The notes below the pieces were generated by a model. The model did not search any database, was not told where the DNA came from, and saw only the letters and a program-made list of their open reading frames with translations. From positions 270,001-302,000 of the forward strand of contig NZ_CP013011.1 in NCBI RefSeq assembly GCF_001412615.1: a stretch of 32,000 nucleotides of DNA, given 5' to 3'. This stretch comes from Pyrodictium delaneyi. GTDB taxonomy: Archaea > Thermoproteota > Thermoprotei_A > Sulfolobales > Pyrodictiaceae. The position numbers were made by a program, and so were the translations under genes. This document shows, one piece after another, positions 19,768 to 24,394 of this stretch (its first letter is position 1; the number at the start of each line of letters is the position of its first letter).

Positions 19768-20739
19768 CTATAGCCTTAGTCTAGTATGGTGTTGTGTCAT
19801 TGCAACATAGATGTGATGGAGTTCTCTAGCTAGCTGCGGTCGTCTTGATAGTAGCTGTAGCGTCTTTTCGGGGTTCTCTAGTATTTCTAGCAACTGGTAA
19901 GCGTTGTGTATAGTCCTTGCGAGTACTCCCTGTCTACCCCACTCTGCTAGCGCTTCGGGGCTAGCTCTGCATGCTGGGCAGTTGCAGCGAGCTGCTATCT
20001 CTTGGGGGGTTGCGCGTGGTCTTCCCGGGGTCTGGCGGGGCGCTGTGAGGGCCATTGCAAGTGTCTCGGGGTGCCGGGTTAGCCCGTAGCGGGCGTCTTG
20101 TAGGGGGCTGCTAGTGTCTGCAGTGTCTGCCAGCCTTGTGTGGGCTAGTGCTGCGAGGAGGCTGTTACCGGCCCCAAATACGTGGATGCGCTTATCGATG
20201 TGTACTCGTGCATAGTGGATGAGCCTCAGAGCTTTGGCTGGCTGGTAGCGTGCGAGGGGTGCTAGGCTTCCGAGCCCTATAGCCTCGACTGTGGGGGCTG
20301 TTCGGCGGAGCTTCTGGAGGGCATCAGACAGCTGGCTTGGGGTATGGGCGTGGAGGGGGTAGATGAAGTGGTCTCCGAAGACTCGAGTCCAGAGTCTGGC
20401 GTTGTTCGCGGTGGCTTCGTTTGCTGCGCGGAAGTCGGCGTCATCGGCCTTTAGGGGGTTGGGGACTGGGGTGTCTAGCGCGACTGGTTTTGCGCCTACC
20501 TCGTCGGCTAGTAGCTGTTGGATCTCTATGACCTTCTCCGGGCTCGGTAGGCGGCCGCGGCTTATGAGGCGGTAGCCGCCACTATCGACGATGACGTCGA
20601 GGCCTCGGAGGAGCTTCACGGATCTGGGAGGGTTGCGGGCAGCGTCGTCGGCTGAGACCATTACGTGGGGGTGGCCGAGTATGTGCCAGAGCTGGGGGTT
20701 TAGCTGTGTCAGGCTGTGGACGAAGTAGACCACCGTCAT
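19768..20739 (-). CDS. tRNA-guanine transglycosylase superfamily protein, DpdA-like (no PUA or other tRNA-binding extension)
   Basis: It has the TGT motifs VDSGGY (catalytic Asp region), HVFGAGNS followed by ADTADTSS (second Asp region), the Zn site CNCPAC and a downstream His (TIHNAY). It is about 323 aa from the ATG at 20739; the ORF track uses the TTG at 20763. Confidence 0.62.
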   Translation of the reverse strand: MTVVYFVHSLTQLNPQLWHILGHPHVMVSADDAARNPPRSVKLLRGLDVIVDSGGYRLISRGRLPSPEKVIEIQQLLADEVGAKPVALDTPVPNPLKADDADFRAANEATANNARLWTRVFGDHFIYPLHAHTPSQLSDALQKLRRTAPTVEAIGLGSLAPLARYQPAKALRLIHYARVHIDKRIHVFGAGNSLLAALAHTRLADTADTSSPLQDARYGLTRHPETLAMALTAPRQTPGRPRATPQEIAARCNCPACRASPEALAEWGRQGVLARTIHNAYQLLEILENPEKTLQLLSRRPQLARELHHIYVAMTQHHTRLRL

Positions 20740-20807
20740 GCCGGCTGCCACACCTGTGGGCAATCCTTATATCTCCAGGAGTTGAGGTAATACCCGGGTT
20801 CTAATGC
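20740..20807. promoter_or_regulatory. Short divergent control region between the TGT-like and NurA-like genes
   Basis: The region is 68 bp (44 bp if the TTG at 20763 is used). It contains the TATA-like CCTTATATCT at 20765-20774, about 35 nt upstream of the 20808 start. Confidence 0.35.
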
Positions 20808-22382: not shown

Positions 22383-24394
22383 TGAGCAGCGGGGCCGAAG
22401 GCGCGAGCTTTGAGAGGATGGTGAGCGAGCGCCGCCGCATAGTCCAGCGCTATGAGGAGATGGTAGAGGCTGCGGAGAGGCTCGCAAGGCTCCTCGCTGC
22501 CGAGCTGGGGGTGGAGACGCTACAGCAGTATGGCTGGCTTGTAGGCCGCGTATCCGCGTCCCGGGATATAGGCTCCGACCTGGTCCCCGTGGATATGGCG
22601 CCGGAGGCCTGGATAGGGCTAGCCCATAGCCATCCTGAGGTCTTCTCGCCGGGCTACTTCTACGCTATAGTTGACCCGAAGACTGCGAGTATAGTGCTCG
22701 GCGAGGTGGCGGAATCTACGCGCTCCAGCATACCCGGGGTGCTCGGGGCGCACGAGCCGCTCACCAGTATACCGCTCGCCAAGCCCAGCCCAGTAACAGT
22801 AGCCGGCAACGTTGTCAGCATAAGGTTGTACGTGAGACCAGTGCTAGCAGTCCACCTCGGCAGAGACGGGTTCGAGAAAGCATCGAGGGCCCGGAGCCTG
22901 GAAGAGATAACCCAGCTACTAGCCGGAGCGGAGAAGCTTGCACCAGCCTTCCCCCTCGACCCGGGAAGCCCCGTCGCTATACCACATCCACGGGTACTCT
23001 CAGCCCTCATAGCTCCAAAGGGCGACGTCGTGCTGGGAGCGCTAGCGATAATGGACCAGCCATACCTCGCAGCCGGCTCCCCGGTGCCAGTATCCCTCCC
23101 CTGGAGCGTGATGGTGAAGCACGTCCTCGTGACCGGGACAACGGGGAGCGGTAAGACGAGCCTTGTAAAGAACGTGCTCTACAGTGTTTCGAAGACGAGC
23201 CGGGGCAGCGTACACATAGTCGTGCTCGACGCCAACCAGGACTACGTCGCCGGGCTCTTCCCGGGCTACATTCCCGCGTCCCTCGTGGACGCGAAGAGAG
23301 CTGGCATACTAAGGCTCTACGGAGTAGGGGCCAAGCCCGGGGAGCCGGTGAAGGGGCCTGCACTCCGGGGCATCGTAGCCATACCCTGCCCTGGCGACCA
23401 CTGTAGCCCCAGAAACGAGGCAGAATACTACGCCAAGACATTAGCCGGGATAGCCAGAGCCATGTACAGCCGCACCAAGGGCGAGTGCAGGCTCACAGAC
23501 AGCCCCAAGCTCCTAGACACGGGGATCCAAGACGTCTACGAGGCCCGGTACGCCGTGGACTGCGGCGGCGAGGAGACAGTAAGCGTGTACATCGCGCCCA
23601 GGAGCATAAAGCTGAAGGATCCAAAGCAGCTAGCAGAGATAGACCCCTACATGACGGAGCGCGCCCGCGAAGTACTCCCAGCGATAGTGGACTCTCTGAG
23701 CTGCCGCAGCCCACACCCCGCCCAGCTCGCCCACTGCATAGAGCGCAGGATACAAGAGGCTAAGCGCTACGCGCCCGAGGCGACGCTACAGCACCTACTC
23801 CGCCGGCTACGAGTCCTCGCAAACACCGGCGTGATAAACACGGCAGCACCGGGGATAGACTACAGCGAGCTAGCAAAGGCGATGAGGAGCCTCGCCGTGG
23901 ACACACTAATGCTCGACCTAGGCTACGCTGCAGCCAGAGCCCAGAGCGACCCCACAGCCGTCAAGGTGCTACTAGGCTACCAGCTCCTCCGCAGCCTAGC
24001 ATCAGCCGCAGAGAAGGGAGAAAGCCCCGGTAAGATACTCCTAGTAGTCGACGAGGCCCACCTATTCTTCCCCAGGGGCGGCGGCGAATACGCCGAAATG
24101 CTCCGGAGAACCCTCGAGCGCCTAGCAAGGCTAGGCAGGAGCCGCGGAATATCCCTACTACTATCCACCCACCGGGAGAGCGACCTCAGCCCCCTCGTAG
24201 TCACACTAGCCAACACCAAGATATACATGAGGACAGACCGTAAGACTGCAGAAGAGCTACAGCTACCCACCGAGTACCGCAAACGACTACCATTCTACGC
24301 CGACTACGCCGCAGTACTCTCAAGCTATGCAGTCCACGGAGGCTACCTAGGCCTAGTAAGCGCACCAGCAACAATAGGCCACAGAACAGCATAA
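22379..24394 (+). CDS. HerA/FtsK-superfamily (DUF87-like) ATPase with N-terminal HAS-barrel-like domain
   Basis: It has an N-terminal barrel-like pattern (LVGRVSASRD...GYFYAIVD...IVLGEVAES), Walker A VTGTTGSGKTS and Walker B ILLVVDEAHLFF. The HerA-like distal motif LLLSTHRESDLSPLVVTLANTKIYMRT is also present. Confidence 0.75.
   Translation: MMSSGAEGASFERMVSERRRIVQRYEEMVEAAERLARLLAAELGVETLQQYGWLVGRVSASRDIGSDLVPVDMAPEAWIGLAHSHPEVFSPGYFYAIVDPKTASIVLGEVAESTRSSIPGVLGAHEPLTSIPLAKPSPVTVAGNVVSIRLYVRPVLAVHLGRDGFEKASRARSLEEITQLLAGAEKLAPAFPLDPGSPVAIPHPRVLSALIAPKGDVVLGALAIMDQPYLAAGSPVPVSLPWSVMVKHVLVTGTTGSGKTSLVKNVLYSVSKTSRGSVHIVVLDANQDYVAGLFPGYIPASLVDAKRAGILRLYGVGAKPGEPVKGPALRGIVAIPCPGDHCSPRNEAEYYAKTLAGIARAMYSRTKGECRLTDSPKLLDTGIQDVYEARYAVDCGGEETVSVYIAPRSIKLKDPKQLAEIDPYMTERAREVLPAIVDSLSCRSPHPAQLAHCIERRIQEAKRYAPEATLQHLLRRLRVLANTGVINTAAPGIDYSELAKAMRSLAVDTLMLDLGYAAARAQSDPTAVKVLLGYQLLRSLASAAEKGESPGKILLVVDEAHLFFPRGGGEYAEMLRRTLERLARLGRSRGISLLLSTHRESDLSPLVVTLANTKIYMRTDRKTAEELQLPTEYRKRLPFYADYAAVLSSYAVHGGYLGLVSAPATIGHRTA

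What the first reader, a model, noticed from the sequence alone, without database searches (positions are those of the whole stretch)
19768..24394. TGT(DpdA)-like + NurA-like + HerA-like three-gene block embedded in a type I-A CRISPR-Cas locus: candidate undescribed defence or CRISPR-accessory system
Three non-cas genes fill the space between the degenerate terminal repeat (ends 19752) and the cas3'' stop (24651). A small TGT-superfamily protein on the minus strand is divergently paired, across 44-68 bp, with a NurA-like nuclease and a HerA-like ATPase whose stop and start overlap, which implies translational coupling. Canonical archaeal herA and nurA sit in one operon with mre11 and rad50 (established); here neither is present. 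Both proteins also appear larger than I recall for housekeeping versions (524 and 671 aa). HerA-family ATPases paired with effector nucleases, and DpdA-type DNA transglycosylases, are each known separately from defence islands. I do not know of a described system combining these three. Hypothesis (a): the TGT-like enzyme marks self DNA with a 7-deazaguanine base, drawing on preQ0, which archaea already make for archaeosine, and NurA/HerA degrades unmarked DNA. Hypothesis (b): the pair resects invader DNA and feeds prespacers to the adjacent array; no cas1/2/4 is in this window. Hypothesis (c): it is an independent abortive or degradative module riding in the CRISPR island.
Basis: partly seen in the sequence, partly recalled or inferred. 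Interest (0 to 1): 0.88.

Follow-up and report, generated by a model that had tools for sequence, protein, structure and literature searches.

The report
CRISPR-linked HerA-NurA pair with DNA-transglycosylase partner
A CRISPR locus of the hyperthermophilic archaeon Pyrodictium delaneyi holds a helicase-nuclease pair already known to accompany archaeal CRISPR systems, here always joined by a small, apparently active base-swapping enzyme of the kind that puts 7-deazaguanine into DNA, and that three-gene combination seems not to have been described.

Summary
Three intact genes lie between the last CRISPR repeat and cas3'': a 331-aa TGT-like protein (-), then a 524-aa NurA-like and a 671-aa HerA-like protein (+) whose stop and start overlap.

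- The HerA-NurA half is not new. CRISPR-associated nurA-herA paralogues were described in 2012, 2014 and 2018, and the HerA here matches that PADLOC model (E 1e-31).
- The TGT-like partner appears to be new. It has the TGT fold and keeps all three catalytic Asp residues and the zinc site. It lacks the tRNA-binding domains.
- Its nearest outgroups are small TGTs in bacterial Dpd-like clusters (QueC, YhhQ-type transporter, DUF6884/YaaA-like), not arcTGT.

All ten further loci that encode a clear relative of the TGT-like gene also have NurA next to it, with HerA beside it (cut by the contig end in one). Gene order varies among them. Eight of the ten lie in CRISPR-cas loci (type I-A or III-B). One is stand-alone, with the TGT fused to a DpdC-related DUF6884 domain.

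Best reading, by inference: a 7-deazaguanine DNA mark gates HerA-NurA degradation, and this module has been recruited to CRISPR loci. I found no paper describing the trio. I rate it a new variant of known kinds, of moderate to high interest.

The parts
14986..15864 (+). cas6
   Evidence: PF10040 CRISPR_Cas6, E 1e-6. It lies directly upstream of the array. In loci L002 and L004 cas6 follows the TGT-like gene on the same strand.
16178..19752 (+). CRISPR array: 53 perfect 25-nt repeats (GCATAACTCAAAAGAGAATTGTAAG) plus one degenerate terminal repeat at 19728-19752
   Evidence: None of 100 shuffles gave any match.
19768..20763 (-). TGT-like (DpdA-like) guanine transglycosylase, 331 aa; the probable true start is Met9 at 20739
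   Evidence: - Sequence matches: PF01702 at 24.4 bits (cut-off 26.3); TIGR00432 E 1e-6.
- Structure: AF2 pLDDT 90.6; Foldseek to TGT structures E 4e-11; TM 0.73 to 1iq8.
- Invariant residues: D60 (DSGG), D97, D216, C260/C262/C265/H286.
- It has no PUA, C1 or C2 domains: 331 aa against 582 aa for arcTGT.
20764..20807 (.). Compact divergent promoter region with two conserved TATA-like motifs: CCTTATATC (20765-20773) and GGTAATAC (20786-20793)
   Evidence: Both motifs are conserved in the window, L001, L009 and L012, although the flanking proteins are only 37-62% identical. Their function as promoters is inferred.
20808..22382 (+). NurA-family nuclease paralogue, 524 aa
   Evidence: - PF09376 at 28.8 bits against 21; 7 of 7 relatives hit it, best E 2e-11.
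- PADLOC NurA 'Type III coevolved', E 2e-4.
- Invariant D83 (GxDGS), E196 (DENR), D222 (VDGP) and D485 (LAD).
- The structure model was too poor to use.
22379..24394 (+). HerA-family hexameric ATPase/translocase paralogue, 671 aa; its start overlaps the nurA stop
   Evidence: - PF01935 at 38.3 bits against 23.2; HerA_C at 24.8 against 22.
- PADLOC HerA 'Type III coevolved', E 1.3e-31.
- Matches to solved anti-phage HerA structures, E 3e-10.
- Walker A at residue 253 and Walker B at 554.
- Overlap with the nurA stop.
24651..25496 (-). cas3'' (HD nuclease)
   Evidence: PF18019 Cas3_HD.
25493..27232 (-). cas3' (helicase)
   Evidence: PF22590, DEAD and Helicase_C.
27250..28431 (-). Probable cas8a-type large subunit (no Pfam hit)
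   Evidence: It sits between cas5 and cas3'. It has 46-58% identical counterparts at the same position in L001, L009 and L012. It has no family hit, so the name is inferred from position.
28407..29234 (-). cas5
   Evidence: PF09704.
29338..30402 (-). cas7 (csa2)
   Evidence: PF01905, E 2e-85.
30428..30754 (-). csa5 (small subunit of type I-A)
   Evidence: PF09702, E 1.6e-23.
31132..31806 (+). csa3 (CARF-type Rossmann domain plus HTH regulator)
   Evidence: PF22662 Csa3_N plus HTH_IclR.

Best explanation
What it is: a conserved three-gene module of hyperthermophilic Thermoproteota (Pyrodictium, Pyrofollis and related uncultured lineages).

Components:
1. A NurA-family nuclease and a HerA-family hexameric translocase form a dedicated paralogous pair. 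This is the Pyrodictiaceae version of the already described 'CRISPR-associated HerA/NurA' accessory pair. It is not the housekeeping end-resection pair.
2. A minimal transglycosylase of the TGT superfamily has a complete active site and zinc site but none of the tRNA-binding domains. It is therefore DpdA-like in design. It is the new, constant third partner.

Most likely mechanism:
1. The transglycosylase exchanges guanine in double-stranded DNA for preQ0, or a derivative of it, taken from the cell's archaeosine pathway. This marks resident DNA. HerA may supply the ATP-driven DNA opening that DpdB supplies in the bacterial Dpd system.
2. HerA-NurA loads on DNA ends and processively degrades DNA. 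The mark limits that degradation to unmarked, foreign DNA.
3. In CRISPR-cas loci this degradation follows Cas3 or Cmr cutting and yields fragments for Csa1-Cas1-Cas2-Cas4.

Shown: gene content, intact motifs, the TGT fold, conserved linkage across rearranged loci, embedding among cas genes, and kinship to TGTs of Dpd-like clusters.

Inferred: DNA as the substrate, preQ0 as the base, sensitivity of HerA-NurA to the mark, and any hand-over to the adaptation proteins.
For: 1. Linkage.
- Ten further independent loci encode a clear relative of the TGT-like protein (profile scores 282-521 bits): L001, L002, L004, L009, L010, L012, L014, L015, L025 and L027.
- All ten have NurA adjacent, with HerA next to it. 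In L025 the HerA gene is cut by the contig end.
- Gene order differs: divergent TGT<>NurA-HerA (window, L001, L009, L010, L012, L015, L025, L027), tandem NurA-HerA-TGT (L002, L004), or convergent (L014). This argues for selection on linkage rather than frozen synteny.
- Pairwise identity matrices of the three proteins agree with each other (Mantel r 0.76-0.87, p <= 0.002).

2. CRISPR embedding.
- Eight of the ten lie within cas loci.
- L002 and L004 have csa1-cas1-cas2-cas4 <> nurA-herA-tgt-cas6, with 48-79 bp between tgt and cas6.
- L014 has cmr2-cmr3-APE2256(CARF)-tgt, with a 4-bp gap.
- L001, L009 and L012 lie beside type I-A interference genes.
- The HerA matches the PADLOC 'Type III coevolved' HerA model at E 1.3e-31.

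3. The enzyme is probably active and not a tRNA enzyme.
- D60, D97 and D216 and the CxCxxC...H zinc site are invariant. They align with arcTGT D95, D130 and D249 and correspond to DpdA D95, D130 and D256, of which D95 and D256 are essential (PMC10164549).
- The protein is 331 aa, against 582 aa for arcTGT.
- It scores 27 bits against a 350-bit cut-off for the arcTGT equivalog.

4. Chemistry by association.
- The stand-alone trio in L027 has the TGT fused to DUF6884 (E 1.6e-18). A sister fusion also hits YaaA/PF03883, the DpdC family.
- DUF6884 is a YaaA-related DNA-binding fold with a predicted base-flipping site (PMC11701544).
- The next outgroups (65-84 bits against 31 bits for arcTGT) are small bacterial TGTs. 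They lie in clusters with QueC, a Vut_1/YhhQ-type transporter, DUF6884/YaaA-like proteins, a second TGT and large helicase-nucleases.

5. Precedent.
- In S. islandicus, Csa3a directly activates nurA-herA together with the adaptation cas genes (PMC5587795).
- A role in adaptation was proposed for the Pyrobaculum CRISPR-associated pair (PMC3396285).
Against: - There are no biochemical data for any member of this family.
- The window has no DpdB-like or DpdC-like gene, and no preQ0 pathway gene lies nearby.
- The window's TGT score is below the Pfam cut-off, and Salmonella DpdA is barely detected by the family profile (E 0.1).
- One locus, L027, has the trio with no cas gene or repeat array within 7-10 kb. 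L025 has none on its visible side. The module therefore does not need CRISPR.
- The cas neighbours vary (adaptation genes, interference genes, cas6, type III-B). This fits defence-island co-location as well as it fits a functional link.
- The trio has the genome's G+C content (0.60-0.62), while the adjacent interference cassette has 0.48-0.51. The two have therefore not travelled together for long.
- H. butylicus keeps NurA-HerA without the TGT, although its nurA is split.
- Nothing here shows that HerA-NurA is sensitive to base modification.
Confidence: 0.4

Rival explanations
1. The trio is an autonomous Dpd-like restriction-modification or defence module. The TGT marks self DNA and HerA-NurA is the restriction arm. 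It sits in CRISPR-cas loci only because defence genes cluster, and it has no functional coupling to CRISPR.
For: - A stand-alone trio exists among housekeeping genes in L027, with no cas gene or array. L025 has no cas gene on its visible side.
- More distant TGT relatives pair with a HerA-like ATPase on short contigs that show no cas gene (L028-L030).
- Bacterial relatives lie in defence islands and Dpd-like clusters.
- The cas neighbours vary between loci.
- G+C content differs from that of the adjacent cas cassette.
Against: - Eight of the ten related loci lie inside cas loci rather than merely near them.
- There are operon-like junctions with cas6 (48-79 bp) and with the CARF gene APE2256 (4 bp).
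- The HerA family was independently scored as coevolving with CRISPR modules (PMC6546367; PADLOC hit).
- In P. abyssi the trio lies next to cas6, with no other cas gene in the 22 kb read, and its nurA is a pseudogene.
Confidence: 0.25
2. The module is a CRISPR adaptation accessory that does not mark DNA as self. HerA-NurA resects invader DNA into prespacer substrates, as RecBCD or AddAB do. The TGT-like protein acts on something else in that process, for example prespacer or integration intermediates, or it has a structural role.
For: - In L002 and L004 the module is placed divergently from csa1-cas1-cas2-cas4, and in L001 it lies next to cas1-csa1.
- There is a Sulfolobus precedent for Csa3a-controlled nurA-herA during adaptation and a Pyrobaculum proposal.
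- csa3 genes lie nearby (window, L004, L009).
Against: - The window has no adaptation genes at all.
- The trio also occurs next to type III-B genes (L014) and with no cas genes (L027).
- A fully conserved catalytic site argues against a purely structural role.
- The DUF6884 fusion and the relatives next to QueC point to base-modification chemistry.
Confidence: 0.15
3. The TGT-like enzyme works on RNA rather than DNA. It would put a 7-deazaguanine into crRNA, for example in the repeat-derived handle, or into a tRNA. HerA-NurA would act separately.
For: - The gene lies directly upstream of, and on the same strand as, cas6, the crRNA-processing enzyme, in L002 and L004.
- The best solved-structure match by TM-score is arcTGT, an RNA enzyme (TM 0.73).
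- All characterised cellular archaeal TGTs act on tRNA (established knowledge).
Against: - It lacks the C1, C2 and PUA domains that hold tRNA in arcTGT (331 against 582 aa).
- It is far below the arcTGT equivalog cut-off (27 of 350 bits).
- Its closest outgroups are TGTs of Dpd-like DNA-modification clusters, not arcTGT (84 against 31 bits).
- It is fused to a YaaA-like DNA-binding domain in L027.
- Its constant partner is a DNA translocase-nuclease pair.
Confidence: 0.1
4. The genes are housekeeping: the genome's ordinary HerA-NurA repair pair and a split or short archaeosine TGT that happen to lie next to the CRISPR locus.
For: Both families have essential housekeeping members in Thermoproteota (established knowledge). 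The trio has the genome's typical G+C content.
Against: - There is no mre11 or rad50.
- HerA scores 27.6 of 800 bits (HerA_Thermprot) and 40.4 of 970 bits (helicase_HerA). The TGT scores 27 of 350 bits (arcTGT).
- The family is small and patchy: 17 close TGT relatives and 25 HerA relatives among 5.8 billion clusters.
- nurA is a pseudogene in P. abyssi and is split in H. butylicus, which also lacks the TGT. The module is therefore dispensable.
- It is always among cas or defence-type genes.
Confidence: 0.03

Closest known systems
CRISPR-associated HerA/NurA accessory pair (Bernick et al. 2012, Pyrobaculum nurA-csm6-herA; Vestergaard et al. 2014, 'Cas HerA/Cas NurA'; Shah et al. 2018, clusters 57/58 'Type III coevolved'; PADLOC PDLC01055/01056)
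   Same: - It is a paralogous nurA-herA pair separate from the mre11-rad50 operon, lying beside CRISPR arrays and cas genes of types I and III in Thermoproteota.
- The window HerA hits the PADLOC model at E 1.3e-31 and the NurA at E 2e-4.
- In L014 a Csm6-family CARF gene (APE2256) is part of the cluster, as in Pyrobaculum.
   Different: - The constant third gene here is a TGT-like transglycosylase, not csm6. None of the three papers mentions a transglycosylase.
- The proteins form a distinct Pyrodictiaceae-type subfamily. Only 27 HerA and 7 NurA relatives were retrieved, none of them from Pyrobaculum.
- The trio also occurs without CRISPR (L027).
Dpd 7-deazaguanine DNA modification-restriction system (DpdA/DpdB/DpdC plus DpdD-K; Salmonella Montevideo) and phage DpdA/DpdA2
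   Same: - It is a TGT-superfamily enzyme without tRNA-binding domains, with the same three Asp residues and zinc site.
- It is paired with ATPase and nuclease genes in a defence context.
- Relatives lie in clusters with QueC, a YhhQ-type transporter and DpdC-like proteins.
- One close relative is fused to a DpdC-related DUF6884 domain.
- It shows structural similarity to phage DpdA and DpdA2 models (TM 0.5-0.66).
   Different: - There is no DpdB (ParB-like ATPase), no DpdC in the window, and none of the DpdD-K helicases or nucleases. The restriction arm would be HerA-NurA.
- Sequence similarity to solved DpdA is marginal (E 0.1).
- The host is archaeal and hyperthermophilic, and the module is embedded in CRISPR-cas loci.
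Archaeosine tRNA-guanine transglycosylase (arcTGT, TgtA; PDB 1iq8)
   Same: It is the best solved-structure match by TM-score (0.73) and the only clear PDB sequence match (E 1e-12 or 8e-7). It has the same catalytic and zinc residues and the HxFGxG motif.
   Different: - The window protein is only 331 aa. It lacks the C1, C2 and PUA domains, and its N-terminal part is about 35 residues shorter.
- It scores 27 bits against a 350-bit equivalog cut-off.
- It is a patchily distributed, cas-linked gene rather than a universal housekeeping gene.
BREX-related capture (BRC) system with HerA/FtsK, GNAT and TGT (NAR 2026, PMC12839542)
   Same: It combines a HerA/FtsK-family translocase with a TGT homologue that is proposed to mark self DNA in a defence system.
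   Different: - BRC is built around PglZ, BrxC-like DUF6079, a STAND NTPase and DUF4007, with GNAT. None of these is in the window.
- NurA is not mentioned anywhere in that paper (0 occurrences).
- BRC has no reported CRISPR embedding.
Canonical archaeal herA-mre11-rad50-nurA double-strand-break resection operon
   Same: It has the same two protein families, adjacent and probably translationally coupled. The expected activity is ATP-driven DNA end resection.
   Different: - There is no mre11 or rad50.
- Both proteins are larger: 524 and 671 aa, against a 254-position NurA domain and HerA equivalog models of 487-561 positions.
- Both score far below the equivalog cut-offs.
- The module is dispensable, as shown by pseudogenes in sister species.

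Membership tests
TGT superfamily (PF01702) | TIM-barrel TGT fold | tested here: met
   The AF2 model has pLDDT 90.6. Foldseek finds 185 PDB matches at E <= 1e-3, all of the listed top 50 being TGT structures, with best E 4e-11 and TM 0.73 to arcTGT 1iq8.
TGT superfamily (PF01702) | Three active-site aspartates: general acid/base, base recognition and nucleophile | tested here: met
   D60 (DSGG), D97 (LDxP) and D216 (DTSSP) are invariant in 19 and in 17 sequences. They align with arcTGT D95, D130 and D249. The roles are taken from PMC10164549.
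TGT superfamily (PF01702) | Structural zinc site CxCxxC...H | tested here: met
   C260, C262, C265 and H286 are invariant.
TGT superfamily (PF01702) | Score above the Pfam gathering threshold | tested here: not met
   The window protein scores 24.4 bits against 26.3. Relatives pass: P0054 at 28.5, P0057 at 43.5 and the L021 protein at 54.1. Superfamily membership therefore rests on fold and motifs.
arcTGT (TgtA, TIGR00432 equivalog) | Equivalog score, and C-terminal C1/C2/PUA tRNA-binding domains | tested here: not met
   It scores 27.3 bits against a 350-bit cut-off. It is 331 aa against 582 aa, and the alignment covers only the catalytic domain.
DpdA (DNA-guanine transglycosylase of the Dpd system) | Recognisable sequence kinship to characterised DpdA | tested here: inconclusive
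   7ui4 scores E 0.1 with the 19-sequence profile and is not hit by the 17-sequence profile. Phage DpdA and DpdA2 models match structurally at TM 0.5-0.66.
DpdA (DNA-guanine transglycosylase of the Dpd system) | Partner genes dpdB (ParB-like ATPase) and dpdC (DUF328) | tested here: not met
   Neither is in the window. A DpdC-related DUF6884 domain is fused to the TGT only in L027, P0054 and P0055.
DpdA (DNA-guanine transglycosylase of the Dpd system) | Inserts preQ0 into DNA | not testable with these tools
   This needs biochemistry or LC-MS/MS of genomic DNA.
NurA (PF09376) | Score above the Pfam gathering threshold | tested here: met
   It scores 28.8 bits against 21. All 7 family members hit it, best E 2.2e-11.
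NurA (PF09376) | Conserved acidic catalytic residues of the RNase H-like core | tested here: inconclusive
   D83, E196, D222 and D485 are invariant, in motifs that resemble NurA motifs. I could not map them onto a solved NurA: there was no PDB sequence match, the model had pLDDT 59.8, and Foldseek gave nothing.
HerA (PF01935 / HerA_C) | HerA central domain above threshold, and Walker A and B motifs | tested here: met
   PF01935 scores 38.3 bits against 23.2, and PF05872 scores 24.8 against 22. GTTGSGKT is at 253 and LLVVDE at 554. Solved HerA proteins match at E 3e-10.
Housekeeping HerA-NurA of the mre11-rad50 operon | Equivalog-level similarity, and mre11 and rad50 as neighbours | tested here: not met
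   HerA_Thermprot scores 27.6 of 800 bits and helicase_HerA 40.4 of 970 bits. No mre11 or rad50 is in the window.
Housekeeping HerA-NurA of the mre11-rad50 operon | It is the only herA/nurA (and the only TGT) in the genome | not testable with these tools
The genome-contig scan returned only three distant bacterial loci. Indirect evidence against: there are pseudogenised or split copies in P. abyssi and H. butylicus.
CRISPR-associated HerA/NurA (Shah clusters 57/58; PADLOC PDLC01055/01056) | Match to the family models | tested here: met
   HerA scores E 1.3e-31 (108 bits), the best of 20 PADLOC hits. NurA scores E 2.2e-4, which is weak.
CRISPR-associated HerA/NurA (Shah clusters 57/58; PADLOC PDLC01055/01056) | Located within or next to cas cassettes or arrays | tested here: met
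   This holds for the window and for 8 of the 10 related loci. The exceptions are L027, and L025 on its visible side.
CRISPR-associated HerA/NurA (Shah clusters 57/58; PADLOC PDLC01055/01056) | csm6 (CARF) gene inside the cluster, as in Pyrobaculum | tested here: not met
   The window has no APE2256 or Csm6 homologue. One is present only in L014.
BREX-related capture (BRC) system | PglZ, BrxC-like DUF6079, STAND NTPase and DUF4007 together with HerA/FtsK | tested here: not met
   Pfam scans of the window genes detected none of these.

The most novel reading that the evidence does not exclude
Archaeal chromosomal DNA carries a 7-deazaguanine mark written by a CRISPR-embedded transglycosylase. 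The mark tells a dedicated HerA-NurA resection machine which DNA to spare. Spacer acquisition, and the clearing of DNA after interference, would then be directed to unmarked foreign DNA. This would be a modification-based self/non-self filter for CRISPR adaptation, playing the part that Chi sites play for RecBCD.
Probability: 0.15. Interest if true: 0.9.

Novelty: new variant of a known kind. Interest (0 to 1): 0.6.

Why it matters
If the inference holds, three things follow.

1. It would be the first case of 7-deazaguanine in the chromosomal DNA of an archaeon. The base would be made by a cellular enzyme that draws on the archaeosine precursor pool.

2. It would give the long-known but still unexplained CRISPR-associated HerA-NurA pair a testable logic: degradation gated by a DNA mark. 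It would also bear on how type I-A adaptation avoids self DNA. That question is open, because Sulfolobus acquires self spacers when crRNA maturation or interference genes are disrupted (PMC5587795).

3. It would add a compact Dpd-like architecture, made of a TGT plus HerA-NurA and optionally a DUF6884 domain, to the list of modification-dependent defences.

If the link to CRISPR is only co-location, the module is still a candidate new restriction-modification variant.

Tried and rejected
- **Genome scan.** The genome-contig scan with the TGT alignment used a single peptide pattern. It returned only three distant bacterial loci and no archaeal genome. I therefore could not check P. delaneyi for a separate herA-mre11-rad50-nurA operon, arcTGT or queCDE.
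- **Viral scan.** The viral-contig scan found no relative, so there is no sign that the TGT-like gene is viral.
- **NurA structure.** The AF2 model from 7 sequences was poor (pLDDT 59.8) and its Foldseek search gave nothing below E 0.1. PDB sequence searches with the protein and with the profile also found no NurA. The NurA call rests on Pfam and motifs only.
- **Unknown partner gene.** I tested whether the 417-aa protein next to the more distant TGT relatives (L028) is a diverged NurA. hhalign probability was 0.4%, so I rejected this.
- **DpdC-like gene.** I looked for a DUF6884 or DpdC-like gene in the window and in the CRISPR-embedded loci and found none.
- **Bacterial promoter and terminator scan.** It gave no more sites than shuffled sequence and does not apply to an archaeon.
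- **Supplementary tables.** The tables of the 2014 archaeal CRISPR census, which could show whether Pyrodictiaceae pairs were among the 14 'Cas HerA', are not held.
- **Housekeeping reading.** Rejected; see the rival explanations.
- **arcTGT paralogue acting on tRNA.** Considered unlikely, for the reasons given under that rival.

Full report
**1.
- The window is from Pyrodictium delaneyi. The three products are identical to Pyrde_0300, 0301 and 0302.
- Between the degenerate last repeat of a 54-repeat CRISPR array (53 perfect repeats at 16178-19684; terminal repeat at 19728-19752) and the stop of cas3'' (24651) lie three ORFs: 19768-20763 (-) of 331 aa, 20808-22382 (+) of 524 aa, and 22379-24394 (+) of 671 aa.
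- The nurA stop overlaps the herA start by 4 nt (GTG) or 1 nt (ATG).
- The divergent gap between the first two genes is 44 bp. It is 68 bp if the TGT-like gene starts at Met9, where its homologues start.
- Around them lie cas6 (14986-15864), then cas3'', cas3', a cas8a-position gene, cas5, cas7/csa2 and csa5, and finally csa3. This is a type I-A interference cassette.
- No cas1, cas2, cas4 or csa1 is in the window.

**2. What the three proteins are.**
- HerA-like: PF01935 and HerA_C are above threshold. Walker A is at 253 and Walker B at 554. It is similar to solved anti-phage HerA hexamers (E 3e-10).
- NurA-like: PF09376 is above threshold in the window protein and in all 7 family members. 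Invariant acidic residues sit in DGS, DENR, VDGP and LAD motifs. I could not confirm the fold, because the model was poor and Foldseek found nothing.
- TGT-like: the Pfam score is just under threshold (24.4 against 26.3). A confident model (pLDDT 90.6) matches solved TGT structures (E 4e-11) and arcTGT at TM 0.73.
- All catalytic and zinc residues of the TGT-like protein are invariant across the family: D60, D97, D216, and C260/C262/C265/H286. These correspond to the aspartates shown or proposed to be catalytic in DpdA and TGT (PMC10164549).
- The TGT-like protein consists of the catalytic barrel only. The tRNA-binding C1, C2 and PUA domains of arcTGT are absent (331 against 582 aa).

**3. Not housekeeping.**
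- The HerA scores 27.6 of 800 and 40.4 of 970 bits against the NCBIfam equivalogs for repair HerA. The TGT scores 27 of 350 bits against the arcTGT equivalog.
- There is no mre11 or rad50.
- In sister species the module decays. In P. abyssi nurA has lost its start and the intergenic promoter region, and carries a local frameshift and an in-frame stop. In H. butylicus nurA is split over two frames and the TGT gene is absent.
- A dispensable, patchily distributed gene set is not the essential repair machinery.
- I could not inspect the rest of the P. delaneyi genome, so the presence of the canonical genes elsewhere is assumed rather than shown.

**4. The trio is a conserved unit.**
- The word-indexed search found only 17 close relatives of the TGT-like protein.
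- The exhaustive search found a wider family of small TGTs: 36 cluster representatives at E <= 1e-30 and 287 at E <= 1e-10.
- I could read ten further independent loci that encode a clear relative (profile scores 282-521 bits). In all ten, NurA lies next to the TGT-like gene, with HerA beside it (cut by the contig end in L025).
- The loci are L001 (Pyrofollis japonicus), L015 (P. abyssi), and the MAG or metagenome loci L002, L004, L009, L010, L012, L014, L025 and L027.
- The arrangement changes between loci: divergent, tandem NurA-HerA-TGT, or convergent. Linkage has therefore been kept through rearrangements.
- The three proteins have congruent distance matrices (Mantel r 0.76-0.87, p <= 0.002). 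Shared species history could also produce this.
- In the divergent arrangement the short intergenic region keeps two motifs, CCTTATATC and GGTAWTAC, in four loci whose proteins are only 37-62% identical. I read these as interleaved archaeal TATA boxes of a shared bidirectional promoter. That is an inference.

**5. Relation to CRISPR.**
- Eight of the ten loci lie inside CRISPR-cas loci, but next to different modules:
  - csa1-cas1-cas2-cas4 on one side and cas6 on the other (L002, L004);
  - cas3'' and cas1-csa1 (L001);
  - csa5...cas3 cassettes (L009, L012);
  - cas6 (L015);
  - a type III-B cassette, cmr2-cmr3-APE2256-tgt, with a 4-bp junction (L014).
- L027 is different. HerA and NurA are divergent from a TGT fused to a C-terminal DUF6884 domain. 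The flanking genes are CysRS, dehydrogenases, ThiF, a nitroreductase and a transporter. No cas gene and no repeat array are present.
- L025 shows no cas gene on its readable side.
- More distant TGT relatives (L028-L030) still sit next to a HerA-like ATPase, but with an unrelated 417-aa partner.
- The module is therefore self-contained, and in the Pyrodictium lineage it lives in CRISPR loci.
- In the window the trio, cas6 and csa3 have the genome's G+C content (0.60-0.63). The cas7-cas3'' cassette has 0.48-0.51. The interference cassette and the trio therefore have different histories.

**6. What is already known.**
- CRISPR-associated nurA-herA paralogues were reported for Pyrobaculum and other Thermoproteales, as a nurA-csm6-herA cluster next to arrays, with a proposed role in adaptation (PMC3396285).
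- They were listed as 'Cas HerA' and 'Cas NurA' (14 each, types I and III) in the archaeal census (PMC3973734).
- They were listed as clusters 57/58, 'Type III coevolved' (PMC6546367), and again as CRISPR auxiliary genes in 2023 (PMC10910872).
- The window HerA matches the PADLOC model built from that work at E 1.3e-31.
- In S. islandicus, Csa3a activates nurA-herA together with the adaptation genes (PMC5587795).
- None of these papers mentions a transglycosylase.
- Full-text searches combining HerA, NurA, CRISPR or defence with transglycosylase, TGT or archaeosine found nothing relevant.
- A TGT plus HerA/FtsK combination was described in 2026 in BREX-related 'BRC' systems. That system is built on PglZ, BrxC-like and STAND components, and the paper never mentions NurA (PMC12839542).

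**7. Why DNA and why 7-deazaguanine (inference).**
- With a profile of the 17 archaeal members only, scores fall in this order:
  - the L027 fusion, 403 bits;
  - the small TGTs of bacterial clusters, 65-84 bits;
  - arcTGT, 31 bits;
  - Salmonella DpdA, not detected.
- Those bacterial clusters carry QueC, a Vut_1/YhhQ-type precursor transporter, a DUF6884/YaaA-like protein (YaaA/PF03883 is the DpdC family), a second TGT, and large NERD-UvrD or DEAD helicases. This is the make-up of Dpd-like DNA modification-restriction islands.
- DUF6884 is a YaaA-related DNA-binding fold with a predicted base-flipping site (PMC11701544).
- Together with the loss of all tRNA-binding domains and the constant DNA translocase-nuclease partner, this points to guanine exchange in DNA. 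The cell's preQ0 pool, made for archaeosine, would be the donor.
- DpdA needs the ATPase DpdB. Here HerA is the only ATPase at hand and may fill that role.

**8. Mechanism and rivals.**
- My best reading (confidence 0.4) is modification-gated degradation. The TGT marks resident DNA. HerA-NurA resects unmarked DNA from ends. In CRISPR loci this works downstream of Cas3 or Cmr and upstream of Cas1-Cas2-Cas4-Csa1.
- The main rival (0.25) keeps the same chemistry but denies any functional link to CRISPR. The stand-alone locus and the variable cas neighbours support it. The operon-like junctions with cas6 and APE2256 and the eight-of-ten embedding argue against it.
- An adaptation-only role without self-marking (0.15), an RNA substrate (0.1) and a housekeeping role (0.03) are less likely, for the reasons given in those entries.

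**9. Verdict.**
- The finding is real.
- I class it as a new variant of known kinds: the CRISPR-associated HerA-NurA pair, and Dpd-like 7-deazaguanine systems.
- Interest is 0.6. A specialist would not be surprised by HerA-NurA next to cas genes. A conserved, catalytically intact DNA-type transglycosylase inside archaeal CRISPR loci is unexpected, and it gives a directly testable prediction: 7-deazaguanine in Pyrodictium DNA.

Noticed in passing
window 24651-30402 versus 19768-24394, 14986-15864 and 31132-31806: The type I-A interference genes (cas7, cas5, the cas8a-position gene, cas3' and cas3'') have G+C 0.48-0.51. The trio, cas6, csa3 and the flanking metabolic genes have 0.60-0.64. The interference cassette looks like a more recent import than its neighbours.
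   Followed up: partly
L015 (Pyrodictium abyssi AP028907.1), about 8480-10004: nurA of the trio is a pseudogene. The 5' end and the whole divergent promoter region are deleted, so the TGT Met9 codon abuts nurA codon 2. A local double frameshift gives an in-frame stop. The TGT (79% identical) and HerA (87%) are intact. The only cas gene in the 22 kb read is cas6.
   Followed up: partly
L016 (Hyperthermus butylicus CP000493.1) 4754-11923: The NurA-HerA pair has no TGT-like gene. nurA is split into two ORFs in different frames, and the upstream csa3 is in two fragments (131 and 65 aa). A 660-aa PAPS-reductase-like protein with a 4Fe-4S domain lies just beyond. This may be a decaying or remodelled copy of the module.
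   Followed up: partly
L027 10001-11317; also P0055: A close relative of the TGT-like protein is fused to a C-terminal DUF6884 domain (motifs CxxxK and LSAxxG), which is distantly related to YaaA/DpdC. It lies in a stand-alone HerA-NurA-TGT locus without cas genes.
   Followed up: yes
L021 1547-12654; L022; L019; L007: Bacterial metagenome clusters carry two different TGT paralogues: a small one of about 305 aa related to the window protein, and one of 516-732 aa, in L007 fused to DUF6884. With them are QueC, a Vut_1/YhhQ-type transporter, an HTH protein, a 1133-1153-aa ATPase and a NERD-UvrD or DEAD helicase. They look like Dpd-like systems of unusual composition.
   Followed up: partly
window 20765-20773 and 20786-20793; same positions in L001, L009, L012: Two short motifs, CCTTATATC and GGTA(A/T)TAC, followed by CYGGG, are conserved in the 44-68-bp divergent intergenic region of four loci. 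They are probably interleaved TATA boxes. A regulator site, for example for Csa3, is not excluded.
   Followed up: partly
L014 4512-6357: A Csm6-family CARF gene (Cas_APE2256) ends 4 bp before the TGT-like gene, in a cmr2-cmr3-APE2256-tgt string that converges on herA-nurA. This links the trio to the Pyrobaculum nurA-csm6-herA arrangement.
   Followed up: partly
L010 11282-12029; L015 6656-7511; L002 14399-15160: HEPN or HepT-like plus nucleotidyltransferase (MNT-type) toxin-antitoxin pairs lie beside or near the trio in several loci. PIN/VapC genes are also frequent.
   Followed up: no
window 9000-12000: A low-G+C stretch (0.46-0.54, against about 0.62 in the flanks) holds a PIN-domain gene (9727-10128) and a short methyltransferase-like ORF (10766-11173). 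It may be a remnant of a mobile or toxin-antitoxin island upstream of the CRISPR locus.
   Followed up: no
window 24395-24650: A 256-bp A+T-rich non-coding spacer lies between the convergent herA and cas3'' genes. I did not look for terminators of the archaeal type or for small RNAs.
   Followed up: no
window 11944-13539 (-): A 531-aa ORF with very high G+C (about 0.69) has no Pfam match. It overlaps the end of a solute-binding-protein gene (13503-14816).
   Followed up: no
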